DNA of 64,000 nt, from positions 243,964-307,963 of the forward strand of contig CAJINV010000024.1 in assembly GCA_905178155.1 (NCBI GenBank), read 5' to 3'. Source of the DNA: Amoebophrya sp. A120 (Eukaryota > Protista > Dinoflagellata). Of the stretch, positions 5,950-26,269 are shown one piece after another (the stretch's first letter is position 1; every line of letters begins with the position of its first letter). The position numbers and the translations under genes are program-made. The notes beneath the pieces were generated by a model. That model was not told where the DNA came from. It searched no databases and saw only the letters and a program-made list of their open reading frames with translations.

Positions 5950-6600
5950 TAAAGGTTGGAAAATTTTTCACGTGTCGTAGAAGCTCAAAAAGTCGACGCA
6001 TTTAGTTGAAAATGGATGCAGTCCCTATAGTTTTGCAAGATCTTTTAAGCCCCTGAATCAGATTGCACATGAAGCGCACAAATGTGCACTGTTTTGCGGA
6101 AAGTAAAAAATTCAAAAAATTAGGGATGTGGTGCAGAAGCCGGAGAAGTTGGCTGATTTAGCTGCTATCTGGTGCAATCCCTCTACTTTTACATAATCGC
6201 TTATTCCATTGGATCAGTTTACACCAACGGCAGCAAAAACTTGCACAATTCCGCGAAAATCAAAATAGTAAAAATTGCAGACATGGCGCAGAAGCATGAT
6301 AAATTGGCCAATTTATCTGGAAATCAATGCGCATCATATTGTTGCGCATGATCACTAAGTGCTGTGGAACAGTTTGCCACCAGCATTGATTAATATGGCG
6401 CATTTTTATGAAGTGTAAAAATTCAAAAAATTTGCAATATGGTGTAGAAACCTGAAAAATGCACGAACTAGCCTAATAATGCATATAATCTATATAGTAT
6501 CTTCCAATCTCTTGATCCGCTGGAGCAAATTATAAAATTAGCGAAAGAATATATAGAATTTTATAAGATTAGCGAAATTGAGAAAATCACAGATGTGGTG
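5950..6600. repeat. AT-rich degenerate 156-bp tandem repeat, left part
   Basis: The TGGTGYAGAAGC-like core recurs at 5975, 6131, 6286, 6442 and 6598 (spacing 155-156 bp). Confidence 0.8.
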
Positions 6601-7426
6601 TGTATGAGTCTGGCTGTGTTTTGCGCTACTTCTGTGCCTTAACTATTTGGAAAATAGGTTTGACACTTACAGTAGTACTTGAGCGATCTTTGGGATGCTC
6701 ATATCGGTACTCTGTACTTACTTAGATTCGTTCTTGTGACACAGAAGAGAAGCTACACAAAAAGTACTATTCGGCATCGTGCAGCCTTGTCGTACAACTG
6801 AGAGCCGTACTCTCGATCGGGACTACGAGAGAACCAAATGCTTTTTTCGGGTCGTAGTTGTAGAGCCACTTGCTTCCAACACTACCTTCAAGCATGCGAC
6901 TCTCACCCCCAATCCACAGGTCTTTTTTTCGTTGGCGTAATTCTAGATTACACATCGAAAGCGCCCCTTTGGTGGTATATCCTACAACGCTGAGGACGTT
7001 GCTTGGACTCCTTGTACTTCTGATGTTTTCGCAAGAACGTATCTGATGAAAACCACTTCTATGAGCCCATTGCTCTGCTCTGCGAGCCCGCTGGTGATTC
7101 GCTCTTGTCCGGTGTGTATTGTTCTCTTCTAAGATCCCAAAGCAACCTTATCATGGCTAGTATAACCACCTTTATACTACTAGTTCTCATCTTTAGTGGA
7201 TGGCCTATTCAGTTCTTCAGCTCCGCGACTACATCGCGTAGCGCGCCGCAGCTGAGTGAGAGACAAGAGCGCATACAAGGGGATACGACCTCAGAGAGAG
7301 GCACACACCTGCTTCGAGCAGGCATGTATTCCCGGTTTCCCTCGTGGAAACGCGTGCGTGTACGCAAAAAGCGTCCACCCGATCTAGTGTCGTGTGAAGA
7401 TCTCTCTTCGGTCACAAAAACCGAAA
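6601..7426 (+). repeat. 5' LTR (826 bp)
   Basis: TGTATGAGTC...CACAAAAACCGAAA aligns without gaps to 19718-20543, with about 24 substitutions by manual count. Confidence 0.95.
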
Positions 7427-7427
7427 C

Positions 7428-7445
7428 TGGTAGCGGAGAGAGGTT
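7428..7445 (+). promoter_or_regulatory. Primer-binding site, initiator tRNA-Met type
   Basis: TGGTAGCGGAGAGAGGTT, 1 nt after the LTR. It has the layout of the complement of a eukaryotic tRNAi-Met 3' end (CCA, discriminator, 7-nt acceptor strand, T-stem strand). Confidence 0.85.
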
Positions 7446-7608
7446 GTGCTCTTCACTGACACAACCTACAGCCATCTTCGATGTGTGTTACCAGCCTATC
7501 TTATTCTCAATTAACATTGTTTTTATCTTAATCGCGAGCTTAGCGCTTGCTACATGGGGACTAGGATATACCACAGGGGCGTATGGCTATAGAAAACACA
7601 AAAGAAAC

Positions 7609-10600
7609 ATGAGTTCCGACAAGACGGAGAAGCTTGAGACCGGCGTTCCCGTTTTCTCCGGGAAGCCCCAGGACTTGAGAAAGTACACAAGCCGCGCTCG
7701 ACGTTACCTCCTCGGCCTCAAGAAGAAAGAAGTTTCCTCAGGCATCATTGATCTCCTCAATGTGGTGGAGAAGAACGACTCCGATTTGTACCTCGAGTTC
7801 ATCGACGAGTTACCCGGAGGAGAAGATGACCTCGGCACGCTCACGAGCCTGGAAGACATGATGAAGATCTGGCGCGTGGTGGCGTTTGGAAAAAGCGAAG
7901 AAAAGAACGAGGTCGTGACGAGCTTCAACGCCTTGTTGGACGTGGGTATCAGCAAGAAGAACAAGACCCAGACCAACGCCCGGAAGCTGAACGAGGTGGC
8001 CTCGGACTTCAACTGTGCCGTCGAGTGTCATGGAATTCGTGTCGAAGGCCGTCGTACGTTCCCTGGCGACATGTGCCCGGAATGCAAGATGACGCAGGTG
8101 TACCTTCGCGGTCACGGTCAGGTGGTGAAACGCGACAGCAACGGGAGCCAGGTGGTCGACGGTACTGGCAACAAGGTCATGGTCGATTGCAAGTACAAGG
8201 ACGAGGCGTTGCAATTCTATCCGACCGAATTGCTCAATGACATCCTGAAGGCCTGCATGCTCCTGCGGAAGTACAAACTCGACCCGGAGACCCTGGCTAA
8301 GGTCATGCAGAGCTGTGACATCTTGGACTACGACTCCGTGATCAACTCCCTGGCCATCCAGGACCGTGCTAAGCGAATTTATTCTGCAGGGGGTGCTAGC
8401 AGTGGAACGTCGATTTTTCGGGTCGAAGACACGGAAGAAGAAGATTCCGACTCGGAAGAAGAGTTTCTTGATTCGTACAAGATTTGCGAGGAGGACCTCG
8501 GGCACATGAGCGATGAATTGAAGGACTGCCTGCGCGACATCCTCTTCACTGGAAATCGCGCGACCACCGGCAAGGGACAAAACAATCGCCGCAGCGACCG
8601 TGCGTCCCGGTTCTGGCAGAAGAAGTTCACGAAGGGTGCCCAACGTGCTCTCGGAGGTCGGAAAGGCCGTGGCAAAGGATCCGCGCGACAAGTCGACGGT
8701 GAGGTGTACGCCGTACCGGACTTCAACGGCATCTGCTACGCGTGCAAGCAGCGTGGACACAAAGCGGCGAAGTGTCCGAAGAACAATCCCTCTGTGATTG
8801 CCGCGGTGATTGAAGAGATGAGCGATCATTTTGGAATGGTGTTCTCGGTGTCAGAAGCGAAGCCGGACAGTACCACGACGCCCGCGTCAAGCTCCTCTTC
8901 TTCTTCGTCTACGACAACCACGGGTGGAAAAAAGCATGGAATTGGCCTTGTGGACCTGCGCGAGGAAGCGCCGATGTCGGAACAGGAAAAGGCGGAAGTG
9001 GTATCTAATTTTTCATCAACAAATAAATCCAAATCCAAACATGTCTCTTACGCATATGGTGATGATTTTGAATTAGCTAAATCCCACAAAAAGGAAATCA
9101 AAAATGAACAAGAAATCGAAATCTCAACAAATGCATCCGAAAATGAAATTGAGCCTCCATCTGTAGAAGAATCTCTGGCGCCATCAATTTGTATCAAAGA
9201 ATCGAGCTGCGAACATTTTCGTTCTGTAACATCCAAATTTGCAGAGTCTTGTATTTTCGAAAATCTCTGGGAGAACGAACTTGATTTGATTTGTAATGAA
9301 CTACCTGGCACCAATGTAAATAATGCTGAGCTTGGCACTTCTTACTCGGATGACAAAGATACCTTTTTTGATGCACTGGAAGACGATGTTGAGTTCCGTG
9401 ATGTTCCAACTCGCCGTCGTATCGTTGGACAACGACAGCGGCGTCGCGAAAACGCGACCAAACGAAATGATATCCAAAAGGCTCTTGAGAAACAAAAAGA
9501 TGACGCTCTGTTCCTCGATCCTATTTGGACTCCAAAACGTGAACTCCACGAAAAGGATCGCGCGCGACACAATTGCGTTGAAATTTGTGATGAATTTCAT
9601 GTGCCTCGTGTACTAACTGCTGAGGAAACAGGGATAGAAGTTTCAAACGCGTGCGGTGAATTCAGTAAAAGTCTGAAGATATCTCGAACGATGAGTGCCG
9701 TGCTTCGTGCCGGTGAATCCGATCTCCCTTTGAGCCAAGGGATTCTCGACAGCGGGGCTAGCCTTTGCGTCATAGGAGAACGGCGACTGCTTCAGATTTT
9801 TAAGGAGCTCGAGAAACGCGGAGTTCCACGGCCAAGTATCCTTCCTTCTTCGCGAAAGATGAGATATGCGGGCGGAGGAATTGGGTCGAGCCGCGGGACC
9901 GTCATGTTGCCCGTACAGAATGCTGGTTTTACCGGAACGCTCGCGGTCGAGGTGATCGAGGGTTCCACGCCGCTTTTACTTGGTCTACCAGCGATGCGGA
10001 GCATGAGCGCGGTACTAGATTTTTGTGAAGCTAGAGTGTATGTTTCTAAGCGTAACAAATCTCACATAGTGCAACTTCTCAAACCTTCTGAAAACACCTT
10101 CGCAATTGAAATTTATCCCGAGAAGCTCCTTCGTGGTGCTGAACTCAAGCAACAACAGATTAAAAGCCAAGACCTACCTCGCTTTGTAGGATTCACAGAA
10201 GATTTTGATGCTGAAGAAGAAACAAGTGAAGGAGTACGTGAAAAGGTTGGTGATATTATTAACAGAAGATATGTGCCAGGTGAGTGGAAACTGAAGGTGA
10301 GCAACTATCATCAATTTTGTTCAAAATTGCATAAGGCATTAGGACACAACAGACAGAAAGTAGTTCTTCTGCTAAAACAAGCTTGTGCTCCAAATGATAT
10401 CGTCAAAACCTACGAGAAAATCTGTGACAGTTGTCCTGATTGTGCTCGTTATCAAGCTCATCCTCGGACACACAAAGCGTCAATCTCGAATTTGACAACA
10501 AAGGAAAATGAAATTTGGCATGCTGATTGCATATTTCCCGACTGCGGTGGGCAGAAAGTATGCTTTTACCATTGCGTCGACCGACACGTAGCGGACTCCT

Positions 10601-13600
10601 TCGTGCGGTTCATGGAGCGGATGGACAGTAGCCTGTTTGTCAAAAAGTGCATAGAATCGGGACAATATTTTCATGGCTATCCAACAGAAAAATGGACTAT
10701 GGACTTAGGGTCCAACTTTGTTGCAGAAGAAAGTAAAAAGGCTCTTCGCGAGCTTTGTGCCGAAACGTGCAAAATCGAGTGGGCACCTGCACGATGTGCG
10801 GAAGGAAATAACTATGCAGAAAGAAGAGGCGCATGGGTCAAAAAGCTCATCGAAATTACATATAATCGTTTCAAAGAGGCACTAGGTACTGAGCCTGACT
10901 TTGAAACTATTGGCTTCGAAGTGACTCGGATTATCGAAAGACTTCCAATCGACAAAAGTGGTGAGCAACCTTTTGAAAGAAGATACCAAAAGGCACCATG
11001 CCACTGGTTGCCTGTTGAGACTTTAGATTATGAAAACGGCTACACCACTGCTGAGCTGCAGAAAAACGAAGTCATTAACAGCATTATCAACGAGGCTATT
11101 CAAAAGCTGAAAGCTGAAAGTGTCATTGAGCGGGTCATGAAACATAACGTGCCTCGTGATGGTAGGAAATATGAGGTGGGGGAAAAGGTTCGATGTTTCA
11201 ATAAGCTATCAGGGCGATGGGACCTGCCGGCAACCTACTTAAGCCGAACCTGCGACAAATACGCGACCCTCCAATTCCTTGACCGCAAAGAACCTTCGCA
11301 GTTTAAATCTACCATGGTCAAGCATTGGACAGCGTCAGAAAAAGCGGAGCCACCGGAGGATCTGCAGGTCCATGAAGCTATCTCTACCCATGCTTTTCAA
11401 CAGAAGCAAGATTCGTACTTGCAAAACCATTTCCCTCGAGGAAGCGCTCCCCAGGCTGAAACAAATCTAGAACGCCAACGAATGCTAGAAGATGCGCCTA
11501 CATGTGGTCCCCATGATGACATTGGGAAACTGATAGGCATGATCGAAAACAGCTGGAGATTTCTCCGCCCCAATCAATATTCTCTTGAGTGGGGATACGT
11601 GCAGACGACTCATAACGGACGTGCAGCTTATCGTAATCCAAATCAAAACAAGCCGGTAGAAGACGCAATTAGGGAATTTGCGCGCAGTGAGCTAAATTTT
11701 ACTACCAACGCAATCAGGATTACTAAGAAGCAACACTGTGACAAATTTGCATTACTTAAACGAGACAATGAGCAGAAGCTGTTGGTCGTCAAGCAAGACG
11801 GAACATTTCGGGTGTTGGACTTTTCCTATGGACATCGGAATCAGCATGCTGACGTGAAGGGGGTGCTCCGCAGGTGGCAGTATGACTATTGTATTGCATT
11901 AGGGAGAGACCCAAACCGAACAGCAGCTGGCGCGATACCTGTTCGACCGGTGTTCTGTCGAAGTTGTAACACGAGCCGGAGTGTGCACGCAAATGAGTAT
12001 CATGATATCAAGAGTCAATATCCAAATGGAATTTTGTGTTCCAATTTGCTAGGGTGTAGTTGTCAGATTATCTCTGATCATTCACAAATTTGGAGTCGTG
12101 ATAAAACGATGGCTCGCTACAATAGACGTCAGCTTGAGATGCTGAGCGAAGGAGCCGGAGGAGGCAGTCCACCGCCATCCTCTGACCCACCGCCAACTTC
12201 AAGTAGCAGCAGCTCCGAAAGTGATGATGAAGCAGAATCTGATAGTTCCTTCGAGGAACAACAAGCTCCCGACACCCTCCCTGGACCTTCTGTACGCGGA
12301 GCTGATTACTGGGAACAGGACGGATGCGATTGGATACGACGCCACGTGGTACCCCGTACGACGATGTTTTATCCCACCGATGCCGCTGCGTCACTGCATG
12401 ATCTAGGATGTCAGCGGATCACCACGATGACGTCGTGTGCGACCGGACGGTCCGTCACACATCAAGATTCCTGGGAAGAAAGCGAAGGCGGGAAAAGCGA
12501 GTGGTTCTGGACAGGGGCAACCCGTTTCCAGAAATTGGAAAATCGGTATATTACTGGTCCTACTCGAAAGCGTACTAGAATTGGTCATGTGAATCGTGTT
12601 TCATGCATTTTTGGTGCACTTGATTTTTTTGATGAAGGTGATAAACTGACTAGTGACAATATCAGCGAAATCAAGAACTGGTGCAAATTTAACCATTTTC
12701 ACATTTGGTCAGGGAGATGCATCAAGAAAAATCCTAATCCCCGGCTAACCGCAGGCTGTCTCATCTTAGACCCAAATAATAATGTTGTAATTGGAAAACG
12801 GGATGGCCAAGGATTACATATAGGGGAATACGGGATTACTTTGCACCGGGACGATGAGTGGATTGGCGATCTCCAACATGTGTATCGTATCTCTCATGAA
12901 CAAGAAGTGTATGACCAATATGCATGCCAATTTATCCGGGAACATGGTCGTTTCGTTTCGTGCGATGACTCGAGTGAAGTTGATTTAGATGTGGCATCTG
13001 GTCCACGTGGGCATAATACGATCTACCACGTGATTAGTCCAGAAGTTGCAGATGCTCTTCTGAGATCAGGAGGAGATGATGAAATTCGCAAGGAGTCGTC
13101 GGCTTTAGGCTTCGTGCCGATATTTTTAGTTCAGAAAGAGTTGACGCAGGCTCAAGTAGATCAAGATTTGGTCGACCCTGGATTTGTACAATCTGAACTC
13201 AAGGAGTGGAAATCATTCCTCGCGAATGACTCTCTAGAGGTCATAGACCGTAGTGAAGCTACCAATATGGTCAAGCCTCGCCTCGTTCGTACTTATAAGT
13301 ACGAGGATCCAAATAACTTCGAGTTAATTACAAAAAGAAAAACGCGAGCTATTTTGCAAGGTTTTTCAGATGACCGCCTTCGTAGCGGTTTACTTACTGA
13401 TAGTCCTACAGTGTTACTATCTAATCTCAGGCTAATGATACAATTAGGAGTTCAGAAAAGATGGAATTATCGAGTTTTCGATGTTCCTACTGCTTTCCTT
13501 CGTGGAAAATTAGATCCAGGACGGGTGGAATTCGAACCACCTCCGGTGTTGAGAAAGTTGTTGAACATCGAAAATCAACCGGATAAAATTTGTAGATGCA

Positions 13601-15231
13601 AAAGTTCTGTATATGGACTTGCAGATGCACCTCGGTGCTTTTATCTGCAGTTTCGTTCTTATTTGGAAAAGAACGGATTCCAGGCATCAACAGTAGATCC
13701 CAGTGTATTTTTGTATTTCAACAAAGAACAAACTGACAACGCCAAGTCCTTCGAGGAAATTTTACAAAAGAAGTATAATAGTGCTGAAGGAAGAAGCAGT
13801 CATGATCTGATTGATTTTCTCAGTAAGGAAACGACTTCGAGTCGTGTTTTGGAAGGATTCATTGCTTTACATGTGGATGATGGATTGGCATATGGTACGG
13901 ACAGTTTCCTGGCTGGACCGATTAAGAAGCTGGCAAGTGACTGGAATATCGAGTCATTTAAAGAAGGAGACTTTAAGTATCTGGGAGGACGCATGCATCC
14001 TGAGGGGCAGGATTTGTATATTGACTTTTCAGCTCATCTGGAGAAGGCAAAGAAAGTGGAAATTCCCAAGAAGATGGTAGGCAGCAATTGGGAAGAGTAT
14101 GCAGATGATGAGCCACTGAGTAAAGTCTTGCATAGCGAATTCCGATCTCTCTTAGGGAGTCTTATGTATGTGTGCTCGCATGGTCACCCTTTGGGTGCTC
14201 ATGAAGTCCATAAAGCTTCAAGTTATGCATCCTGTCCCACGTTTGGAAATCTTCGTGATTTAAATCGAGTTTTCTACAAAATGAAAAAGACTCCAATGAG
14301 AATTCGCATCTCAGCACAGAAAAATCCCTATTTTGCAGTTTTTGGTGATGCAAGTTTCGCTACTGGTCGTGGCGCTAAGACGCCGGTGGGCCGTGCAATC
14401 TGTTTTACAAGTGATGAAGCTTTGAGCTCTGAATGTGAAAATGATGCATCAGCCTCACTCCTATTTTGGAAAACCACTAACCTCTCGCGGGTTGTTCATA
14501 GTACTAAGGCTGGCGAAACATTGTCCATTATCGAAGGAATTGACTCAGCAATTCTTTTAAGATACTTATGGTACGAGTGTACTGGTGATGTACTTGCACT
14601 TCGTGTGTACACTGACTGCAATTCCCTCGTGGAAAATATGCATAAACTCAGTATTCCAAAAGAAAAGGGTCTAGTGCTCGCAAACGAACAGCTGAAACAG
14701 TTCTTGGAAAATGATCACGGTGATCATCTACGTCATATAGATAGTCAGCATCAGTTAGCTGATTGCTTAACTAAACCATTTACCTTCGGGGTAAAACATC
14801 AGATGTTCGAAGCTTGCTGTGACGGAATCTTAAGAGGATGTAGAAATAATAAGACGATGCGAGCGAAAGCTCACAGCAAGTCTAAAAAGTGTTATACTTC
14901 AAAACACAAAAATCAAACTGACCGACTCCGTCAAACAGCAGATGGCAAAGCTACAGTATCTACAGTGCCAGGTCGTGCTGAGAGTGTAACTCTAGAAGCA
15001 CTCAAACGTCTTAACGAGCTATATGGTGAAAGTCATGATGTTTCAGATCAATATGAAATCTACGATCCACAAAACAGGACGGACTGTTCGAATACGACTA
15101 TCTCAACGCCGACGGAACCTCCGCCGAGCGGGAGTAATTCGGAAGACAGTGGTCTCGCGCCGGGAAGTCCTGTAGATGAGTTTGATAATCGAGAACCATT
15201 AGAGTCTCCACTGAGCTCTCCTTATGATTAG
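7609..15231 (+). CDS. Copia Gag-Pol polyprotein (the ORF is open further upstream, to 7105, with an ATG at 7153)
   Basis: Gag start VPVFSGKPQD; CCHC knuckle CYACKQRGHKAAKC (about 8734); protease ILDSGAS (about 9748); integrase HKALGH..CDSCPDC and D/D/E (WHADC, TMDLGSNF, NYAERR; about 10330-10830); RT (FDVPTAFL, VYGLADAPR, LHVDDG at about 13876); RNase H (GDASF, YTDCNSL, LADCLTK; 14341-14775). Confidence 0.95.
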   Translation: MSSDKTEKLETGVPVFSGKPQDLRKYTSRARRYLLGLKKKEVSSGIIDLLNVVEKNDSDLYLEFIDELPGGEDDLGTLTSLEDMMKIWRVVAFGKSEEKNEVVTSFNALLDVGISKKNKTQTNARKLNEVASDFNCAVECHGIRVEGRRTFPGDMCPECKMTQVYLRGHGQVVKRDSNGSQVVDGTGNKVMVDCKYKDEALQFYPTELLNDILKACMLLRKYKLDPETLAKVMQSCDILDYDSVINSLAIQDRAKRIYSAGGASSGTSIFRVEDTEEEDSDSEEEFLDSYKICEEDLGHMSDELKDCLRDILFTGNRATTGKGQNNRRSDRASRFWQKKFTKGAQRALGGRKGRGKGSARQVDGEVYAVPDFNGICYACKQRGHKAAKCPKNNPSVIAAVIEEMSDHFGMVFSVSEAKPDSTTTPASSSSSSSSTTTTGGKKHGIGLVDLREEAPMSEQEKAEVVSNFSSTNKSKSKHVSYAYGDDFELAKSHKKEIKNEQEIEISTNASENEIEPPSVEESLAPSICIKESSCEHFRSVTSKFAESCIFENLWENELDLICNELPGTNVNNAELGTSYSDDKDTFFDALEDDVEFRDVPTRRRIVGQRQRRRENATKRNDIQKALEKQKDDALFLDPIWTPKRELHEKDRARHNCVEICDEFHVPRVLTAEETGIEVSNACGEFSKSLKISRTMSAVLRAGESDLPLSQGILDSGASLCVIGERRLLQIFKELEKRGVPRPSILPSSRKMRYAGGGIGSSRGTVMLPVQNAGFTGTLAVEVIEGSTPLLLGLPAMRSMSAVLDFCEARVYVSKRNKSHIVQLLKPSENTFAIEIYPEKLLRGAELKQQQIKSQDLPRFVGFTEDFDAEEETSEGVREKVGDIINRRYVPGEWKLKVSNYHQFCSKLHKALGHNRQKVVLLLKQACAPNDIVKTYEKICDSCPDCARYQAHPRTHKASISNLTTKENEIWHADCIFPDCGGQKVCFYHCVDRHVADSFVRFMERMDSSLFVKKCIESGQYFHGYPTEKWTMDLGSNFVAEESKKALRELCAETCKIEWAPARCAEGNNYAERRGAWVKKLIEITYNRFKEALGTEPDFETIGFEVTRIIERLPIDKSGEQPFERRYQKAPCHWLPVETLDYENGYTTAELQKNEVINSIINEAIQKLKAESVIERVMKHNVPRDGRKYEVGEKVRCFNKLSGRWDLPATYLSRTCDKYATLQFLDRKEPSQFKSTMVKHWTASEKAEPPEDLQVHEAISTHAFQQKQDSYLQNHFPRGSAPQAETNLERQRMLEDAPTCGPHDDIGKLIGMIENSWRFLRPNQYSLEWGYVQTTHNGRAAYRNPNQNKPVEDAIREFARSELNFTTNAIRITKKQHCDKFALLKRDNEQKLLVVKQDGTFRVLDFSYGHRNQHADVKGVLRRWQYDYCIALGRDPNRTAAGAIPVRPVFCRSCNTSRSVHANEYHDIKSQYPNGILCSNLLGCSCQIISDHSQIWSRDKTMARYNRRQLEMLSEGAGGGSPPPSSDPPPTSSSSSSESDDEAESDSSFEEQQAPDTLPGPSVRGADYWEQDGCDWIRRHVVPRTTMFYPTDAAASLHDLGCQRITTMTSCATGRSVTHQDSWEESEGGKSEWFWTGATRFQKLENRYITGPTRKRTRIGHVNRVSCIFGALDFFDEGDKLTSDNISEIKNWCKFNHFHIWSGRCIKKNPNPRLTAGCLILDPNNNVVIGKRDGQGLHIGEYGITLHRDDEWIGDLQHVYRISHEQEVYDQYACQFIREHGRFVSCDDSSEVDLDVASGPRGHNTIYHVISPEVADALLRSGGDDEIRKESSALGFVPIFLVQKELTQAQVDQDLVDPGFVQSELKEWKSFLANDSLEVIDRSEATNMVKPRLVRTYKYEDPNNFELITKRKTRAILQGFSDDRLRSGLLTDSPTVLLSNLRLMIQLGVQKRWNYRVFDVPTAFLRGKLDPGRVEFEPPPVLRKLLNIENQPDKICRCKSSVYGLADAPRCFYLQFRSYLEKNGFQASTVDPSVFLYFNKEQTDNAKSFEEILQKKYNSAEGRSSHDLIDFLSKETTSSRVLEGFIALHVDDGLAYGTDSFLAGPIKKLASDWNIESFKEGDFKYLGGRMHPEGQDLYIDFSAHLEKAKKVEIPKKMVGSNWEEYADDEPLSKVLHSEFRSLLGSLMYVCSHGHPLGAHEVHKASSYASCPTFGNLRDLNRVFYKMKKTPMRIRISAQKNPYFAVFGDASFATGRGAKTPVGRAICFTSDEALSSECENDASASLLFWKTTNLSRVVHSTKAGETLSIIEGIDSAILLRYLWYECTGDVLALRVYTDCNSLVENMHKLSIPKEKGLVLANEQLKQFLENDHGDHLRHIDSQHQLADCLTKPFTFGVKHQMFEACCDGILRGCRNNKTMRAKAHSKSKKCYTSKHKNQTDRLRQTADGKATVSTVPGRAESVTLEALKRLNELYGESHDVSDQYEIYDPQNRTDCSNTTISTPTEPPPSGSNSEDSGLAPGSPVDEFDNREPLESPLSSPYD

Positions 15232-15504
15232 ACGTCACAGTTCTATTTTTCGTCCTAGCGATGAGTGTTGTTTCCTCGAGAAAAATGATTTGATATCAAT
15301 GAAAGCTTCTGTTCCTCGTGAAAGAAGCCCACATCCCGACTTCTATGTTTATTTTACCAAATTTTCCTGTTCCTCGTGAAAGGATTTCTGGTATAACGAT
15401 CCGAAGTCACAGTTGATGTTGTATCTTGATTTCTCCATGCCATGACGCAATGCACTTGTTAGGAAAGAGAGTACGTGTTCCATTACAGTTTTGCCTAGCA
15501 CAAA

Positions 15505-15762
15505 ATGCCGGAGCGTCCTCATTTTCCACAAATTGTCATCAGCGAGCTGGAGAAGGAGGTAAGGAACTACCGGGAGTTGTATTTTGAGCTTTTGCGTGAA
15601 AATGCCAAGCTGCGTGATCAAGTTAGTTCTCTTCAGCTAGACTGCTCCAGGCTAATAGAGTTAAAAACCAAATCACCTGAGAAGAACAGCGTATTGGATT
15701 TTGCATGCAAATTCTGTGGGGCAAAGTGCTCTGATATCAAAGCGCAATATTCTGTTTCGTAA
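15505..15762 (+). CDS. Retroelement accessory ORF A, 85 aa, coiled coil plus CxxC
   Basis: ATG-started ORF inside the element; heptad-like ELEKEVRNYRELYFELLRENAKLRDQVSSL followed by CKFCGAKC. Confidence 0.5.
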   Translation: MPERPHFPQIVISELEKEVRNYRELYFELLRENAKLRDQVSSLQLDCSRLIELKTKSPEKNSVLDFACKFCGAKCSDIKAQYSVS

Positions 15763-15837
15763 TTTGATGTCAATCCATGCCTTAGAACTTCGCGTTTGAC
15801 TAAAGCAAAAGGCTCTCTTAGCGATTTCCATCTTGAG

Positions 15838-16386
15838 ATGATGCGGATTCGTGCCGTCAAGTGCAAGGACCACGCTGAGGTGGTTTCCCTGCCGTCTGTT
15901 ACCGCCCGTCCCGTCACAGGACAAAACGGGTGCACGACCATGGAGTACAGCTTCATGGACAAGTACATGGAGGGCTGGACGTCCCGCAAGGTCGGCCAAG
16001 ATTACGTGCGTCTCGCAGTTCCCTGTAAGCACCGCACGTTCCTCAAGTCCTTGTTCGAGTGCCGTGGTTTGAGCAAGCCCGACGATACCGTCATCGTGAG
16101 CTGCAACATCGGCACCGCTGGTCACAACGACTACGAATTGAAGTTCTCGCAGTTGGAGTCCATCAGTGATGACGAAGCCCCCGCTACTAGAGCTGGTGCT
16201 TCGATGCAGGCTATTGCTAACAAATTAGATGAAATTGTTATGCGCCTGCAGCGCCTGGAGTTACACGTTATCGGTAGTGAGGAGGAAGAATATATGATGA
16301 TGGAGGATAAGACTGAAGGATCTCAGTCTAGTTCCACTGCTGCTAGCTCGACTTCGCGTCAGAAGCGTAACGTGCGTAAGCCGTAA
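15838..16386 (+). CDS. Retroelement accessory ORF B, about 182 aa, unknown function
   Basis: Marked C/G third-position bias over 15850-16170, short coiled coil, acidic stretch and basic C-terminus RQKRNVRKP. Confidence 0.7.
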   Translation: MMRIRAVKCKDHAEVVSLPSVTARPVTGQNGCTTMEYSFMDKYMEGWTSRKVGQDYVRLAVPCKHRTFLKSLFECRGLSKPDDTVIVSCNIGTAGHNDYELKFSQLESISDDEAPATRAGASMQAIANKLDEIVMRLQRLELHVIGSEEEEYMMMEDKTEGSQSSSTAASSTSRQKRNVRKP

Positions 16387-16695
16387 GTAGTTTTACTTTT
16401 TGCCTCGTACAAAACCAATCGATCATTCGGTGATCAGAAGTTATCGCATCTTTTAGGATTATAAGGTCGAGCTCTGCGCTGATCGAAATCCATGAAGTAG
16501 AGTGGTGTTATCAAGTCCATCTGACTATCCGAAAATCAAGTGAGAATTCTTCGAGATATCTCATATGAAGCTTCCAGATAGAATTGAAGGACTGTGCTGT
16601 GATGAAAATTTCAGATTGCGCCTCGTGTGAATCGATGAAATAAATACGAAGTTTTGACAAGATTTTATAGAATCACTTCGAAGTGATGAGATCTG

Positions 16696-17031
16696 ATGTA
16701 TTTGTTCCTCGCGAAAGCAAAACAATATCTCCATTCAAGAACAGATTCTCGCAGGCTCTTGTGTTTGATCTCAGATAAAATGTCCGCCGTTCGATTGAGA
16801 TTGTCTCTGCTTGAGCGGGATACGGCGACTCTGAAACATAAGAAATTGATGGTCTCTATTCATAATTTGAAAATGAAGCGTGTTGCGGGTAAATTACTGA
16901 AGTTTATCAAGCGCGCCAAGACATCAACAACTGCGACGTTGCAAGATTATTCTCTCGCGAAAATGGAACTTGAAGCAGCATTAGATAATCTAGATTCGGT
17001 TGCACATGTGTGGGACTTGACTCCGCAGTAA
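16696..17031 (+). CDS. Retroelement accessory ORF C, 111 aa, basic and helical
   Basis: ATG ORF whose stop lies 1 nt before the next ATG (TAAGATG). Confidence 0.5.
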   Translation: MYLFLAKAKQYLHSRTDSRRLLCLISDKMSAVRLRLSLLERDTATLKHKKLMVSIHNLKMKRVAGKLLKFIKRAKTSTTATLQDYSLAKMELEAALDNLDSVAHVWDLTPQ

Positions 17032-17032
17032 G

Positions 17033-19627
17033 ATGTCCCACGCGGACTTAATTGAACAAATTTCGCATTTGAATCTAATCAGGAGAGAACTAATTTGGAC
17101 CAACTTAGATAGCAAACTCAAAATGGCGTCTGAATCTGTTGAAGCTGTGCCGCCGCCGCCTAGTGTGGCTCCTGAAGACGATGAGAGTCTAGGTTTTGTC
17201 GATTTCTCCAAAGAAGGAGCAGTCAGTTTTCCAGCACCAGGTAACTATGATTGGAACCGTGTTTGGAATAATCACATCCTAGGAAATAAGCTTATCACTT
17301 GGGGTCCTGAAATTGAACCCGAGATAGCATCCATTATCGGTCGTACCTTGAACGGAGAGCATCTCATGCAGCCGTTTGGTATTCCCACACGTGATGTTTT
17401 TGATCAGCCTATTATCAACTATCTCAGTGCTCCGAGCTTCGTGTCGAGCAATTCCCCCGGGACTTTGTGTCCTATTGCATGTGATAGTGAGATGATTAAG
17501 AAACACATCACGCCAAATCACACAGTGATTGTGCTAGATGCATTCAACGTCTACTCTCAAACAACTGATCGCATTGCTATCCAAATTCCACCGCTTTATG
17601 TTGGTCTCGGGCCAATGATAGTCGTGCCTCCTTGTGACTCGCAAGGGTGCCAAGCTTTTAATCTTTTCGATGTGAAGCACAGTACTTTTGCAAATCGCGT
17701 TGTTTTCAACCCCCAAACCGTCTCTGAGCAATACTCCTGGGACGATTTCTACCATCACATGTTTCTTCGAGAAAAGAATGAAGGTTTAGCACCTGAGACC
17801 ACTGGTATCAACATGCACTTCACAGCTGACCAGAGTGAATCGGAATCGGCCGTGAGCGTCAACATGGAGGATGCCGAAGCAGCCGCCCTTGAGATCAAGA
17901 AGTCCACCGAGGTGCAGCCCGAAGTTGTTGGCACGCAGCCCGAAGGAACCGAGATCACCAAGAGCAAGCGCGCCTCGACCGATCCCGCGCCACAAGTCGT
18001 TCATCCTGCTGAATCGGAACCGGACTTGTCCCAGTCCGCCAGCAAGGAATCGATGAAGTCGCCCAAGGCTTCCGTCGACGCTGCGTCTATTGTTCAAGGA
18101 ACGCCAGAGGTTAGCGGTCCGAGCACTAAGATGACGCGGACAGACAAAGGCGAAGTAACGGAGCCTAAAGGAAAAGGAAAGGTCGTCTCTTCGGGAGACA
18201 AGAAAGTTTCTAAAGAGAATTCCGTTGCTGCTTCGCGCAGTTCTAAATCGAATGTTGTGGATCCGCATAAGGACACGTACTACAAGGACATTGTGAACCG
18301 ATGTACCATGTTGCAACAGATTGACTCTTCTGTCGATCCCGTCACTGCTGGCAAGCTGCGAGTTTCGTATGCTGCGTATCCCATTGAGTACGGGAATTAC
18401 GCTATTGCCTCGCGGTACATGCAGCAGTCCTATTTGCCATCTGGATACATGATGAACAGCAAGGGTTTGTGTCGAAGCAGCTATGCTGACAATGCTATTC
18501 CTGATGTGTGCGTCGTTTCTAGTTTGTCGCAGGACCACATGTACGTGTTTGATGATGAGCTCGACGAAAAGGTACGTGAAAAGTTGAGCCCGTCGGAAGA
18601 AGGGGACTTCGACTACAAGTCTGCTTACCTCAAGTGGAAATCTATCCAGATGTCCCGAGGAAAAGAGATTTGCCATGATTTCAAGGTGAAAGAGTTGCAA
18701 CTTGTTGTGACCCGCCTGTTCCAGTTAACTCCTCAGTTGACTGGTGCTGAAATCGGCCGCGTCCTCGCGAGTTCTTTTGGTTCGCTTCGTGCGACGTGTA
18801 AGTGCGGTGACAGTCGCTTCGCGCACAACAGAAGTATTTGCGGGTGTGAAAACACTTTGCGTACTATGTCACGTTTGAAGTTAGAAGGCAAGTGGCCAAA
18901 TATTCCACGTGGTCATGAGAACCCAGACGCTCGGCGAACTGAAATTCTCACTGAAACCAACTACGGAAAGTATGGTCGGGACTTCGGGTCCATCTTTTGT
19001 TATTTCTGTCACTGGATGGACACTCCAGCGAGCATTGGTAGTGTGCACACCAAAGCTTTCTGCACCGAGTCCGAGGCTTCCTTCGCGGAAGAATTTAGTC
19101 GTTGTTCCGAGCTCCGGAGACAATGCGAAAAGAGTAGTGCAGTCTACAAAGGTGAAATAGTCTGCAAAGCCGCGTTCGAGCAGCCCACGGGTGCCTGCAC
19201 CTACACGAGCCACCCGGTTGCTTCTGCCGTGTGCTCTACGGACACATTGGGAGTTCCCGCGTACTTCACTGGTGTGCACTCCGCTGATCCCCAGTTGAAG
19301 AACAAAGGTAAGGGCAAGAGCGGTTTCTTCAAACAGGACGAGAAGGTGCTGCAGCGTGGCGGCAATCAAGGTTCTGAAAATGAAGGACTACTCGTTGGAC
19401 AACACCATGGCGGTAAGAAGGGTAACAAAGGAAAAGGGAATAAGAATTTCCAGCCGAGTGCGGCATCTAGTTCTCCTCCTCCGTCTATGCAGATCGGCGC
19501 GTACGAACAAGGAGTTCTTGCTGGTCTGAAAGCCGGGAATCAAGCGAACATGAAGGGAAGTTTCCCCATGGGACCTAGTGGGAGAAAAGGAGGAAATGCT
19601 TGGTTTAACAACTGGCCTATGCAGTAG
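17033..19627 (+). CDS. Retroelement accessory ORF D, 864 aa, Cys/His motifs and K/G-rich tail
   Basis: 2.6-kb intact ORF ending about 90 nt before the 3' LTR; motifs CKCGDSRFAHNRSIC and CYFCHW..HTKAFC; KGKGK/GGKKG tail; no obvious transmembrane helix. Confidence 0.85.
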   Translation: MSHADLIEQISHLNLIRRELIWTNLDSKLKMASESVEAVPPPPSVAPEDDESLGFVDFSKEGAVSFPAPGNYDWNRVWNNHILGNKLITWGPEIEPEIASIIGRTLNGEHLMQPFGIPTRDVFDQPIINYLSAPSFVSSNSPGTLCPIACDSEMIKKHITPNHTVIVLDAFNVYSQTTDRIAIQIPPLYVGLGPMIVVPPCDSQGCQAFNLFDVKHSTFANRVVFNPQTVSEQYSWDDFYHHMFLREKNEGLAPETTGINMHFTADQSESESAVSVNMEDAEAAALEIKKSTEVQPEVVGTQPEGTEITKSKRASTDPAPQVVHPAESEPDLSQSASKESMKSPKASVDAASIVQGTPEVSGPSTKMTRTDKGEVTEPKGKGKVVSSGDKKVSKENSVAASRSSKSNVVDPHKDTYYKDIVNRCTMLQQIDSSVDPVTAGKLRVSYAAYPIEYGNYAIASRYMQQSYLPSGYMMNSKGLCRSSYADNAIPDVCVVSSLSQDHMYVFDDELDEKVREKLSPSEEGDFDYKSAYLKWKSIQMSRGKEICHDFKVKELQLVVTRLFQLTPQLTGAEIGRVLASSFGSLRATCKCGDSRFAHNRSICGCENTLRTMSRLKLEGKWPNIPRGHENPDARRTEILTETNYGKYGRDFGSIFCYFCHWMDTPASIGSVHTKAFCTESEASFAEEFSRCSELRRQCEKSSAVYKGEIVCKAAFEQPTGACTYTSHPVASAVCSTDTLGVPAYFTGVHSADPQLKNKGKGKSGFFKQDEKVLQRGGNQGSENEGLLVGQHHGGKKGNKGKGNKNFQPSAASSSPPPSMQIGAYEQGVLAGLKAGNQANMKGSFPMGPSGRKGGNAWFNNWPMQ

Positions 19628-19710
19628 TTGTCCTCAACTAGATTTGTTCTATACACCTTATAGCTTCGTACTAGTTTTTAGTTTACTTGAGAATAAGATA
19701 GTCAGGTAAC

Positions 19711-19717
19711 AAGGGGG
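19711..19717 (+). promoter_or_regulatory. Polypurine tract
   Basis: AAGGGGG immediately before the 3' LTR. Confidence 0.8.
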
Positions 19718-20543
19718 TGTATGAGTCTGGCTGTATTTTAAGCTACTTCTGTGCCTTGACTATTTGGAAAATAGGTTTGACACTTACAGTAGTATTTGAG
19801 CGATCTTTGGGATGCTCATATCGGTACTTTGTACTTACTTAGATTCGTTTTTGTGACACAGAAGAGAAGCTACACAAGAAGTACTATTCGGCATCGTACA
19901 GCCTTGTCGTACAACTGAGAGCCGTACTTTCGATCGGGACTACGAGAGAATCAAATGCTTTTTTCGGGTCGTAGTTGTAGAGCCACTTGTTTCCAACACT
20001 ACCTTCAAACGTGCGATTCTCACCCCCAATCCACAGGTCTTTTTTTCGTTGACGTAATTCTAGATTACACATCGAAAGCGCCCCTTTGGTGGTATATCCT
20101 ACAACGCTGAAGACGTTGCTTGAACTACTTGTACTTCTGATGTTTTCACAAGAACGTATCTGATGAAAACCACTTCTATGAGCCCATTGCTCTGCTCTGC
20201 GAGCCCGCTGGTGATTCGCTCTTGTCCGGTGTGTATTGTTCTCTTCTAAGATCCCAAAGCAACCGTATCATGGCTAGTATAACCACCTTTATACTACTAG
20301 TTCTCATCTTTAGTGGATGGCCTATTCAGTTCTTCAGCTCCGCGACTACATCGTGTAGTGCGCCGCAGCTGAGTGAGAGACAAGAGCGCATACAAGGGGA
20401 TACGACCTCAGAGAGAGGCACACACCTGCTTCGAGCAGGCATGTATTCCCGGTTTCCCTCGTGGAAACGCGTGCGTGTACGCAAGAAGCGTCCACCCGAT
20501 CTAGTGTCGTGTGAAGATCTCTCTTCGGTCACAAAAACCGAAA
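19718..20543 (+). repeat. 3' LTR (826 bp)
   Basis: Direct repeat of 6601-7426. Confidence 0.95.
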
Positions 20544-20850
20544 GTGTAAAATAAGACAAAGCTAGGAAATCAATGTAGGAGCATGTATATATCATATACC
20601 TTTGCAATGTCCCTTGATCTGCAGCAGCAGACTATGTTCAGTGTTGGCAGTTTTTGAATATTTTGGCAAAAGTGAAAAATTTGGAAAATTACCTTTGTGG
20701 TGCAGAACTGTATAGATGCAGAATTGAACAAATGAAAGAGATGTAGCATGCATTCTTATGATATAATGCACAATCTGTTCGATCAAATTTGGCTCCTTTG
20801 TGAAATCCAGTCTGTATTTTGGAAAATTCCAATTTTTTGGCTTGTGTGTA
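20544..20850. repeat. AT-rich 156-bp tandem repeat, right part
   Basis: Cores at 20544 (GTGTAAAA) and 20700 (GTGCAGAAC) are exactly 156 bp apart and continue the phase of the left array. Confidence 0.75.
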
Positions 20851-22873: not shown

Positions 22874-23070
22874 TCAGGTAGTAATGGAAATAAAGTGCTA
22901 CCTCTCAATAAACGTATTTTTATGAGTCAATCAATCACGCATTTCACTTCTCACTACAGGCTGGCCTCGAACGGAAAGATAGTGGACGGGTTTCGCGAAC
23001 AAACATATCAGAGGGAAAAATCTCCCCGTATTGCTGTTGCTGTTGGTGGTATCATCTGCAAACCGGCTTT

Positions 23071-23331
23071 TATGAATTGCAAATATGTCTGGGTCTGTAA
23101 GGATGCGAACTTGTCATGCAGATTTTACATGGCCCGTGACGTCTGTGATGTATTCCCTGGCATCACAGGTTTTCTGACTGCTTCTTGATGCGTATTCCGC
23201 ATGACAAATGACCTCTCCGCGTAGCAGAAACTGGACGCCTCTTGCTGATCATGCAATACAGATTTTTCTAGAATCCAAAGTTAGCATCACAAGTTCCAAC
23301 TTTTCAGACCCAGACACTTTTGTAGTTGATA
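23071..23331. mobile_element. Introner/MITE, family A
   Basis: TATGAATTGCAAATATGTCTGGGTCTG...CAGACCCAGACACTTTTGTAGTTGATA, direct repeat (DR) GCTTT/GCTTT; empty paralogous site at about 37616-37640. Confidence 0.92.
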
Positions 23332-24885: not shown

Positions 24886-25915
24886 GCCAAAGGTGGCACG
24901 ACAACCAGAGACGACGGCAGTACGATCAGCGCTGCCGCAAGGAGGGACACCAGGAGCCGACGCCGTGATGTTCTGTGACCGCAGTGTCAAAGATCGGGAA
25001 TCGGAGCACAAATCGCTGCCCCCACCGTGAGGGAAGTCGTACAAATACGCCACTGCACCGAGGAGGACGACCCAGCAGCATGTCGCCTGGAACAAAATTC
25101 CACCACTGTGGCCGGAGACAGCGCAGGCTCAGCTGGAAACCAAACGACGCCCGTAGCCTCCTGTACTTCCGATCGCCGAAAGACCAGCTGGACCCGTGGA
25201 ACCACTACAATCTGGAGCATCTTCAGCTCCCGCCGGGGACCTCCCTCTGGAAGCTGAGTACCGAGGTCACGCGCTGCGTACGGGTGGATCACCAGAAAGA
25301 GATTGCGAGTGGAGTCGTCCAACACAAGCTGCCGGGTTATCAGACAGAAAAGATGAACTGCAAGAATACAGCACCACTATACAAAACATCTCTCATTCGC
25401 CTTCGGTATACAAATCATCTGTCATGCGTTTTTCTCACGGGCACCGCTGTGCAGAACAGCTTTTGCGGCATTTCTTCCTGTTCGCTCGCTCCAAAAAGCT
25501 ACAATGTTTTCGTTGCACTAATATGAACTGAAACATGATTGCGCAGCACTGTAAAACTGATTTTCAATTTCCTTTCCATTTCCCGGCTGATGGCGTGACT
25601 TTCCCAGCTGATGGCGGACGAACAGCGACGAAAGGAAGGCGCTTCGCAGTTGCCGATGCTGTGATGCGCAATACGTACCACACGACGACTACACGGAGCG
25701 GAGAAGCTGGCGCGGCTGAATTCGGAGCGAAAATCGCTAGTGCAACAGGTTCTACACGCTGCTCTACTTCCGCCGAAGCAGGAGTTACAACCCTGCAGCC
25801 GATCATTCGCTAGTGCGTGTCTGGAGCGCTACGCCCCGCCGTACAACTACCGGGTGGTGCAGCACGGAGGCGGGCAATAAAGTGCAACTGCAGCTCCCGC
25901 CGGGGACCACCCTCT

Positions 25916-26168
25916 TATCAAATGCAAAAATGTCTGGGTCTGTAAGACTGCGAGATTTGTCATGCTTGTCTGGGATGACCGAAAAGTTTGTGATGCGTGT
26001 CCAAGAAAAGACCCTTTTGCCTGTCATGCAAAAACGCAGTTTGTCATGCCAAAAACGCAACACAAAGAAGCGCAGATATTTCTCATGCTTCGCTGTGCAT
26101 TACAGATAATTCCCGATTCCCAACGCAGCATCACAAGTTTCCAGACCCAGACATTTTTGCATTTGATA
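25916..26168. mobile_element. Introner/MITE, family A
   Basis: TATCAAATGCAAAAATGTCTGGGTCTG...CAGACCCAGACATTTTTGCATTTGATA; DR CCTCT/TCCCT; empty site at about 34355-34378. Confidence 0.9.
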
Positions 26169-26269
26169 TCCCTCGCAGCTGAACCAGCACAAATCGCTGC
26201 CCCCACCGCGAGGGAAGTCGTTCGTGGTAGCTGCGAACTGGTGCGGTCGCGCAAAAACGAAAACCGAGG

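What the first reader, a model, noticed from the sequence alone, without database searches (positions are those of the whole stretch)
15232..19717. Copia element carrying a 4.5-kb cassette of four extra sense ORFs between pol and the 3' LTR
Seen: ORFs of 85, about 182, 111 and 864 aa lie inside the LTR boundaries, all on the element strand and without introners. The last two are coupled by TAAGATG. The 864-aa protein has two CCHC-like motifs (C-x-C-x6-H-x4-C and C-x2-C-x12-H-x4-C), a disordered linker and a KGKGK-rich tail, but no clear TM helix. Known: most Copia elements end soon after RNase H; Sireviruses add an env-like ORF. Inference: this may be an undescribed accessory module (nucleic-acid binding, anti-silencing or particle-associated), expressed by trans-splicing, subgenomic RNAs or re-initiation.
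Basis: partly seen in the sequence, partly recalled or inferred. Interest (0 to 1): 0.8.

Follow-up and report, generated by a model that had tools for sequence, protein, structure and literature searches.

The report
Hairpin-tagged accessory genes in giant Copia
A 13.9-kb jumping gene carries, after its usual replication genes, four extra reading frames with no relative found in any search, and the extra region is studded with the same small hairpin as the rest of the element, so it is likely a long-standing built-in module whose largest protein probably binds the element's own RNA.

Summary
An intact, single-copy Copia element (LTRs 6601-7426 and 19718-20543, 97% alike) has sense ORFs of 85, 182, 111 and 864 aa between pol and the PPT. 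Short-read contigs match them letter for letter (possibly the window's own source). ORF2 and ORF4 have clear coding signal; ORF1 and ORF3 show only coiled-coil patterns. The ORF4 and ORF2 homologue searches found nothing, folds were uninformative, and expression and dN/dS could not be tested.

New here: 35 hairpins with an xUCGx pentaloop (mostly C-YUCGN-G) and freely varying stems run through the LTR, pol and cassette (p 5e-20). Fourteen lie in the cassette, 7 inside ORF4 against 0.6 expected from synonymous shuffles; host DNA is at background. A 29-nt inverted repeat pairs the post-PBS leader with the cassette's PPT end. The cassette therefore likely evolved as part of the element's genome and is not a fresh capture. 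ORF4 most likely acts as a zinc-binding, basic-tailed RNA-handling factor (inferred).

Additional ORFs after pol are a known kind. This scan has noted hairpin arrays in other giant Copia elements. New variant; interest 0.6.

The parts
6601..7426 (+). 5' LTR (826 bp, begins TG, ends AA; flanked by a 3-4 bp target duplication, GTG or GTGT)
7428..7443 (+). Primer-binding-site-like segment starting TGG (tRNA partner not tested; no tRNA in the window)
   Evidence: sequence
7486..7514 (+). 5' arm of a 29-nt, 90% complementary long-range inverted repeat (cyclisation-like)
7153..15231 (+). Single gag-pol ORF, 2692 aa from the first ATG (inside the LTR); likely start at 7609; order CCHC, PR, IN, ~600-aa insert, RT, RNase H; catalytic motifs intact
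15272..15381 (+). Three exact copies of TTCCTCGNGAAA (15272, 15312, 15370), members of the hairpin family
15505..15762 (+). ORF1, 85 aa, coiled-coil pattern plus a CxxC..C tail; no codon signal; in frame with ORF2 across one TAA
15838..16386 (+). ORF2, 182 aa, orphan; strong coding signal, GC3 as high as gag; predicted small folded domain, short coiled coil, acidic/Ser tail
16696..17031 (+). ORF3, 111 aa (83 aa from ATG 16780), basic and helical; no codon signal; stop followed by G-ATG of ORF4
17033..19627 (+). ORF4, 864 aa (834 from ATG 17123), orphan; Cys/His motifs at residues 589-603 and 656-677, Lys/Gly-rich tail, no TM helix; carries 7 hairpins
15275..19086 (+). 14 YUCGN-pentaloop hairpins in the cassette; loops start at 15275, 15315, 15373, 15789, 16353, 16426, 16708, 17062, 17766, 18190, 18232, 18786, 18983, 19082
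6727..14789 (+). 21 further xUCGx-pentaloop hairpins in the 5' LTR and gag-pol, densest in RT-RNase H (10)
19683..19711 (+). 3' arm of the long-range inverted repeat, overlapping the polypurine tract
19704..19717 (+). Polypurine tract ending AAGGGGG
   Evidence: sequence
19718..20543 (+). 3' LTR

Best explanation
The 4.5-kb region lies inside a giant Copia element, encodes two well-supported orphan reading frames (182 and 864 aa) plus two weaker small helical ones, and carries the element's repeated hairpin; it is likely a long-resident accessory module whose 864-aa product probably binds zinc and the element's own RNA. Shown: boundaries, ORFs, coding signal for ORF2 and ORF4, about 35 same-loop hairpins with varying stems through LTR, pol and cassette, and a 5'-3' complementary pair closing the internal region. 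Inferred: (1) the full 13-kb RNA, cassette included, is the packaged and reverse-transcribed genome, and the 5'-3' pair circularises it as CYC5/CYC3 do in Ty1; (2) the hairpins are repeated protein-landing tags, like dispersed packaging signals, read by Gag or by ORF4; (3) ORF4, with two Cys/His knuckle-like motifs and a Lys/Gly-rich tail, helps select, export or condense this long RNA, with the small coiled-coil proteins as partners; (4) the cassette is expressed from shorter RNAs (spliced or spliced-leader trans-spliced) rather than by read-through from pol. 'Integral module' is about 0.8 likely; the specific RNA-handling role of ORF4 is about 0.4.
For: Unbiased enumeration of loop words: xTCGx pentaloops with at least 3 Watson-Crick pairs at 35 of 233 sites in the element (background 2.0%, p 5.5e-20), against 3 of 238 for the reverse word and 22 of 801 in host flanks. 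Synonymous-codon shuffles: polyprotein 16 hairpins against a mean of 1.65 (0 of 1000 shuffles reach it); ORF4 7 against 0.61 (0 of 1000; 0 of 5000, maximum 4). Loops fall in all three codon phases, and 7 of 7 long host frames have none. Density per kb: cassette 3.1, gag-pol 2.05, host 0.15-0.25. The top-listed inverted repeat of the 12.3-kb interior (29 nt, 90%) joins 7486-7514 to 19683-19711 (BLAST E 4.7e-4). Coding signal: ORF4 scores +48.6 bits in frame and is negative in the five other frames; ORF2 z 5.2. One unbranched 12,392-nt contig with no differences spans the interior. The closest relative (P0001, 42% over RT-RNase H) sits on a 14,710-nt contig with 6.9 kb beyond its ORF, which would fit a similar cassette but was not seen.
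Against: No homologue of ORF4 or ORF2, so conservation and function are unshown. Neither Cys/His motif matches a Pfam zinc finger. Models have pLDDT 33 and 40. ORF2 is not enriched for hairpins (1 against 0.27; 234 of 1000 shuffles) and the gag region has 1 of 29 sites. G-U against A-C appositions are 7 against 6 and 8 against 7, so the data do not show that the sense RNA, rather than DNA, is what folds. ORF1 and ORF3 lack codon signal. There is one copy only and no RNA test. The motif was first seen in the spacers and at one ORF4 site (17766), so the remaining ORF4 and pol counts are the independent part.
Confidence: 0.5

Rival explanations
1. Integral module, but acting on DNA or chromatin: ORF4 or ORF2 is an anti-silencing or transcription factor that reads the repeats as DNA (CpG-containing imperfect palindromes or cDNA hairpins).
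For: Every loop holds a CpG; the strand test is flat; four exact TTCCTCGNGAAA copies sit ahead of ORF1 and at the start of ORF3 (0.04 expected), much as palindromic RM boxes cluster ahead of Sirevirus env (PMC2829016, section 9).
Against: Stem letters vary freely while pairing is kept (all four pair types at stem positions 2 and 3), which a sequence-specific double-strand binder would not require. The loop word is strand-biased, with 42 C-YTCGN-G on + and 6 on -.
Confidence: 0.2
2. The cassette is a passenger: host or foreign coding sequence transduced recently, with no role for the element.
For: Single copy; aORFs found in one or a few copies are often transductions (PMC7264820 abstract); distant relatives appear to lack it; GC3-rich patches resemble host-like codon use.
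Against: ORF4's synonymous sites carry the element's hairpin far above expectation while host frames carry none. There is no match elsewhere in the window, and no other contig of run X1 lay on the cassette at 85%.
Confidence: 0.08
3. ORF4 is a second, highly diverged Gag-like or capsid-associated protein, or the remnant of a nested retroelement absorbed long ago.
For: The order of predicted helical region, two CCHC-like motifs and Lys/Gly-rich patch resembles Gag-NC; these elements' Gags have similar KGKGK patches.
Against: A profile of 24 Gag regions scored ORF4 below several of its own shuffles and below its reversal (E 25), a low-power test. There are no internal LTRs or TIRs in the cassette.
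Confidence: 0.12
4. The locus is being kept by the host (early domestication), with the 5' LTR and ORFs under selection after insertion.
For: The LTRs differ by 2.9%, yet polyprotein and ORF4 have no stops (about 3.5-7 expected if neutral). In 17 of 21 transitions the G/C is in the 5' LTR (p 0.007).
Against: All replication signals are intact. The LTR differences may predate or accompany insertion. The single TAA between ORF1 and ORF2 could be one such hit. RNA runs gave no test.
Confidence: 0.07
5. ORF4 is an env-like entry protein.
For: Its position and size match env-like sense aORFs (PMC7264820).
Against: No signal peptide or TM segment is evident in any of the four ORFs (best hydropathy 1.57), and the tail is basic.
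Confidence: 0.03

Closest known systems
Sense additional ORFs between pol and the 3' LTR (aORF-3S; Sirevirus, Athila and Bagy2 env-like ORFs; PMC7264820, parts 1-2 of 3 read; PMC2829016, abstract and section 9 read)
   Same: Same place and strand; orphan product; repeated palindromic motifs cluster ahead of the extra ORF, as Sirevirus RM boxes do.
   Different: Up to four ORFs rather than one; no TM segment; a protist element; the repeats are variable-stem hairpins spread through the coding sequence rather than fixed-sequence boxes in LTR and linker; no PPT array seen.
Non-env ORF3s of bdelloid rotifer LTR retrotransposons (GDSL esterase, DEDDy exonuclease; PMC5408684, abstract and passages)
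   Same: Non-envelope accessory ORF after pol, proposed to have auxiliary roles; the paper states that ORF3s are typically expressed from spliced messages.
   Different: Those ORFs have recognisable enzyme homologues; these have none, and the Cys/His motifs match no Pfam family.
Multiple dispersed packaging signals of ssRNA viruses (PMC6281560, abstract only)
   Same: Many genome-wide stem-loops that share a loop motif while the stems vary, overlaid on coding sequence.
   Different: Here in an LTR retrotransposon; binding partner and role in assembly are untested.
Ty1 CYC5/CYC3 genome cyclisation (PMC7969010, passages)
   Same: Complementary segments next to the PBS and next to the 3' PPT.
   Different: A 29-nt arm across 12 kb that includes the cassette; predicted only.
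Dinoflagellate Ty1-copia elements (SmTCL1-4, PMC5776459, passages; P0002-P0009; L002)
   Same: Single long gag-pol ORF, IN before RT, large inserts.
   Different: Only 24-29% identical in RT-RNase H. The passages read mention no extra ORFs. L002 has neither a long sense ORF after pol nor the hairpin.

Membership tests
Ty1/Copia LTR retrotransposon | Direct LTRs with PBS and PPT | tested here: met
   826-bp LTRs at 97%; TGG-led segment 1 nt after the 5' LTR; purine tract before the 3' LTR
Ty1/Copia LTR retrotransposon | Order PR-IN-RT-RNase H with a Copia-type RT | tested here: met
   rve at 1116-1201, RVT_2 at 2042-2187; protease, RT and RNase H motifs
Ty1/Copia LTR retrotransposon | TG...CA termini and 5-bp target duplication (typical values, recalled) | tested here: not met
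   The termini read TG...AA with a 3-4 bp duplication; a departure from the norm, while the enzymes are clearly Copia
Sirevirus | Plant host, Sirevirus RT clade, multiple PPTs, CGG-CCG RM boxes | tested here: not met
   The nearest RTs are unnamed records and one EukProt 'Skav' gene model; the repeats are YTCGN hairpins, not CGG-CCG boxes; no RT tree was built
env-like aORF-3S | Sense ORF between pol and the 3' LTR | tested here: met
env-like aORF-3S | Transmembrane segment | tested here: not met
   Best hydropathy 1.57, against 2.48 for the hydrophobic segment of the polyprotein extension
Conserved (functional) aORF | Present and under purifying selection in most family copies | not testable with these tools
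   One copy in run X1; no genome held; the DNA of P0001 could not be reached
Retroviral-type CCHC zinc knuckle (C-x2-C-x4-H-x4-C) | Canonical spacing or Pfam match in ORF4 | tested here: not met
   Spacings are C-x-C-x6-H-x4-C and C-x2-C-x12-H-x4-C; no Pfam hit
Gag-like second capsid ORF | Similarity to Gag or a capsid fold | tested here: inconclusive
   No Gag-profile score; the model is too poor to test the fold
Dispersed packaging signals | Many stem-loops with a shared loop and variable stems, beyond protein-coding needs | tested here: met
Dispersed packaging signals | Fold in the genomic RNA strand | tested here: inconclusive
   G-U against A-C appositions 7 against 6
Dispersed packaging signals | Bound by capsid protein and needed for assembly | not testable with these tools
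   Needs binding and packaging assays

The most novel reading that the evidence does not exclude
A protist Copia lineage has evolved a complex-retrovirus-like layout: a multi-gene accessory cassette encoding a new zinc-binding RNA reader (ORF4) that recognises about 35 C-YUCGN-G hairpins written along its own 13-kb genome, giving the element a private RNA barcode and a dedicated, non-Gag reader for export or packaging.
Probability: 0.2. Interest if true: 0.85.

Novelty: new variant of a known kind. Interest (0 to 1): 0.6.

Why it matters
Extra ORFs after pol are known mainly from plants and animals, and their origin and function are mostly unresolved (PMC7264820). Here a sequence-internal signature separates 'part of the element' from 'captured passenger' even in a single copy, which is a reusable test. 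How LTR retrotransposons pick out their own RNA is also open. An element with about 35 same-loop hairpins and an orphan Cys/His protein in the same genome gives a defined RNA ligand and two candidate readers (Gag, ORF4) that can be tested in a simple binding assay.

Tried and rejected
Homologue searches. ORF4: none among 7,991 scored candidates of 475-1,512 aa; 0 at E up to 0.001 among 1.84 billion representatives; no pattern match in viral contigs. The one metagenome scan returned 1 locus from 6 pattern matches, an 11-residue chance match in a prokaryote-like contig (L001), rejected. ORF2: 0 of 65 candidates at E up to 10. ORF1 and ORF3 were not searched against these collections. Exact look-up: 0 of 7 window proteins are in the collection. 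Pfam, PHROGs and NCBIfam gave only sub-threshold hits (best: PHROG E 0.0017 on ORF1's coiled coil). PDB sequences gave nothing meaningful. ESM Atlas: best 0.87 for ORF4 405-760, with a zf-CCHC cluster at 0.84, both below the 0.9 lead level, and no usable hit for residues 60-265.

Folds. Single-sequence models had pLDDT 33.5 and 40.2. The Foldseek rows (three rows at E below 0.001 but TM 0.05 and rmsd above 55) and VIA-align (best Z 4.0, none at 5 or more) are noise.

Expression. No RNA holder was listed. X4-X6 gave 0 reads on 6400-20800. X3, X7, X8 and X4 gave nothing on 15001-20336, but X7, X8 and X4 showed only diverged repeats or paralogues of the flanking host DNA and X3 only patchy pieces, so this is no test.

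Relatives' DNA. The RT alignment found nothing confirmed in viral contigs (0 of 118) and one distant Copia in a MAG contig (1 of 13, L002).

Other. Rfam gave one chance row (E 0.75). My first hairpin model (bulged G, 3-bp stem, 5-nt loop; 4 in the two spacers, 0 of 3000 nulls with 3 or more) was replaced by the simpler loop-word model. The null for the longest inverted repeat was flawed because it counted self-overlapping palindromes, and it is not used. In the same call one other window (12270, -38.5 kcal/mol) paired with the pre-PPT piece slightly better than the leader (-36.1), so energy alone does not single out the leader pairing. Whole-spacer folding z-scores are unremarkable (-0.63, +0.68).

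Literature. Searches listed no paper describing a multi-ORF cassette in a protist Copia or dispersed same-loop hairpins in an LTR retrotransposon (searches returned 0 papers). The library lacks most subscription papers, and supplements were not read.
Full report
1. The element. The window holds one complete LTR element of 13,943 bp. The LTRs are 6601-7426 and 19718-20543: 826 bp, 24 substitutions, no indels. A TGG-led PBS-like segment begins at 7428, and a purine tract ending AAGGGGG abuts the 3' LTR. The ends read TG...AA and the duplication is only GTG or GTGT, which is atypical for Copia (typical values recalled). The empty site reads like a motif repeated in the flanking host DNA, so the two LTRs bound one insertion. 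One ORF (7153-15231) encodes a zinc knuckle, protease, integrase, a long insert, a Copia-type RT and RNase H. GC3 jumps at the ATG at 7609, the likely Gag start. Only 9 polyproteins scored at E up to 1e-10 among 3,781 candidates: P0001 at 42% and eight at 23-29%, one of them named as a EukProt 'Skav' gene model. A compact-genomed dinoflagellate relative such as Amoebophrya is my inference. PMC7789003 (passages) reports few TEs, some LTR elements and spliced leaders in that genus.

2. The observation. The four ORFs, the TAAGATG junction, the two Cys/His motifs, the KGKGK patches and the lack of a TM helix are all as described. Run X1 covers 7397-19788 in a single 12,392-nt contig with no differences, at depth 43.8 against 44.7-47.6 for the flanks. 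The frames are therefore not long-read errors and the element has no close sister copy in that run, though X1 may be the window's own source. The 864-aa frame is far beyond chance (longest of 1000 resampled regions 278 aa) and scores as coding only in its own frame (+48.6 bits; the five other frames -52 to -131). ORF2 is also coding (z 5.2) and its GC3 reaches 0.85, like gag. ORF1 and ORF3 have no codon signal (z 0.9 and -0.1), but each has a heptad pattern better than almost all of its shuffles (2 and 4 of 300 reach it). ORF1 and ORF2 share a frame and are separated by one TAA and 25 open codons, so they are either two genes or one interrupted gene. ATGs at 16780 and 17123 are preceded by AAA and may be the real starts of ORF3 and ORF4, which would make the TAAGATG coupling incidental.

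3. No homologues, no fold. ORF4 found nothing in the 5.8-billion-protein search, in 1.84 billion representatives or in viral contigs; the single metagenome hit is spurious. ORF2 found nothing. Family libraries, PDB sequences, the Atlas and fold searches gave only sub-threshold rows. A profile of 24 Gag regions does not recognise ORF4. The RNA runs gave no test.

4. A hairpin written through the whole element. A repeat search of the cassette showed TTCCTCGNGAAA four times, all in the cassette (15272, 15312, 15370, 16705; 0.04 expected in 64 kb). Two copies fold as hairpins with the same loop on different lower stems. Widening the scan showed the same loop on unrelated stems across the element. 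I then enumerated all 64 central loop words without choosing one. In 6601-19717, xTCGx pentaloops close a stem of at least 3 Watson-Crick pairs at 35 of 233 sites, against a 2.0% background (p 5.5e-20); the next word has p 0.004. The reverse word scores 3 of 238, and host flanks 22 of 801. Loops of 4 and 6 nt show no enriched word; the 3- and 7-nt signals are the same sites read one pair in or out. The closing pair is C-G in 30 of 40 listed hairpins (33 with Watson-Crick stems plus 7 that need G-U), and the next pairs use all four types. Shuffling synonymous codons while keeping the protein gives 1.65 hairpins in the polyprotein against 16 observed, and 0.61 in ORF4 against 7 observed (0 of 1000 each; 0 of 5000 for ORF4). 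One of ORF4's seven (17766) was seen before the test; six would still exceed the maximum of 4 in 5000 shuffles. The loops lie in all three codon phases, and seven long host frames have none. Densities per kb are 3.1 in the cassette, 2.05 in gag-pol and 0.15-0.25 in the host. Against this: ORF2 (1 against 0.27) and the GC3-rich gag part (1 of 29 sites) are not enriched. G-U and A-C appositions are equal (7 against 6), so RNA rather than DNA folding is inferred, not shown. The two distant Copia pieces in L002 lack the motif (0 of 18 and 1 of 57 sites).

5. A 5'-3' pairing. The top-listed inverted repeat of the interior joins 7486-7514, 43 nt after the PBS-like segment, to 19683-19711, overlapping the PPT (29 nt, 90%; E 4.7e-4). 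The positions match the CYC5/CYC3 cyclisation sites of Ty1 (PMC7969010, passages). By energy alone another window pairs as well, so the argument rests on position and contiguity.

6. What this means. A recently captured host sequence would not carry the element's hairpin in its synonymous sites. The cassette has therefore likely been replicated as part of this genome long enough for selection on the nucleic acid to write the tag into ORF4 while keeping the frame open, and ORF4 has been under selection as protein at the same time. Indirect comparison agrees but is weak. Full-length listed members of the P0002 cluster lie on contigs of 8.1-9.0 kb, and 9 of the 15 listed members of the P0003 cluster on contigs of 7.8-8.1 kb, with no room for a cassette if those contigs run LTR to LTR (15 of 27 and 15 of 21 read members listed). 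L002 has no sense ORF above 128 aa in the 4.7 kb after pol (its LTR was not mapped). P0001's contig has 6.9 kb to spare, unseen.

7. Mechanism (inferred). The full RNA is circularised by the 5'-3' helix and marked by about 35 loops that a protein reads, as with dispersed packaging signals (PMC6281560, abstract). Gag is the default reader. ORF4, with two Cys/His motifs, further Cys residues up to 734, a disordered linker and a Lys/Gly-rich tail, is the most plausible second RNA-binding factor, for selection, export or condensation of an unusually long genome. ORF1-3 each have a short coiled coil and would be partners. Expression most likely comes from shorter RNAs: ORF3s of LTR elements are typically made from spliced messages (PMC5408684, passage), and pyrimidine-rich stretches ending in AG lie 0-6 nt before the ATGs at 15505, 15838 and 16780 (suggestive only, no statistic). 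Re-initiation at TAAGATG is possible but unsupported. Rivals: a DNA- or chromatin-acting factor (0.2), a Gag-like second structural protein or absorbed element (0.12), a passenger (0.08), domestication (0.07), env (0.03).

8. Unexplained. The LTRs differ by 2.9%, yet 3,404 codons of polyprotein and ORF4 contain no stop (about 3.5-7 expected if neutral), and 17 of 21 transitions leave G/C in the 5' LTR (p 0.007). Either the differences did not accumulate neutrally after insertion, or the 5' part is under selection.

9. Known and new. Additional ORFs between pol and the 3' LTR are a known class (PMC7264820, parts 1-2 read; PMC5408684). My searches listed no description of a multi-ORF sense cassette in a protist Copia or of dispersed same-loop hairpins in an LTR element; subscription papers and supplements were not seen. 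This scan's own unchecked notes describe hairpin arrays with other loops in giant Copia elements of dinoflagellates and green algae. I consulted them after finding the motif; they are not independent support, but they show the array is not unique to this element. Verdict: real, a new variant of a known kind, function unproven; interest 0.6.

Noticed in passing
window 7153-7608: The polyprotein frame is open for 152 codons upstream of the likely Gag start, beginning inside the LTR, and holds two hydrophobic segments (hydropathy 1.95 at residue 1, 2.48 at 116). P0002 and P0009 also have N-terminal hydrophobic segments. There is no codon signal (z 0.04). A possible membrane-anchored Gag isoform.
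   Followed up: partly
window about 11590-12130 (polyprotein 1480-1660): The insert between integrase and RT is shared with P0001 (E 2.7e-5). The P0001 copy weakly matches zf-CW (E 0.058), a histone-mark reader (recalled): a possible targeting domain.
   Followed up: partly
window 6601-7426 against 19718-20543: LTR differences are one-sided: 17 of 21 transitions have G/C in the 5' LTR (p 0.007), while the long ORFs are intact.
   Followed up: partly
window 6598-6600 and 20544-20546: Non-canonical termini (TG...AA) and a 3-4 bp target duplication, inserted in an AT-rich host repeat.
   Followed up: partly
window 14803-15231: The polyprotein runs 151 residues past the last RNase H motif, against 27-89 in the seven relatives where the motif was found.
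   Followed up: no
window 23070-57260 (e.g. 23070-23331, 25915-26170, 34753-35354): High-copy host repeats, many as inverted pairs, interrupt host reading frames and draw very deep coverage; consistent with introner-like elements. None lies in the retroelement.
   Followed up: no
L002 9338-11539 (- strand): A second Copia-like element in a contig filed as a bacterial MAG. The stretch before its integrase looks like a cytosine-methyltransferase domain (recalled motifs, not tested), and the contig is probably eukaryotic contamination.
   Followed up: no
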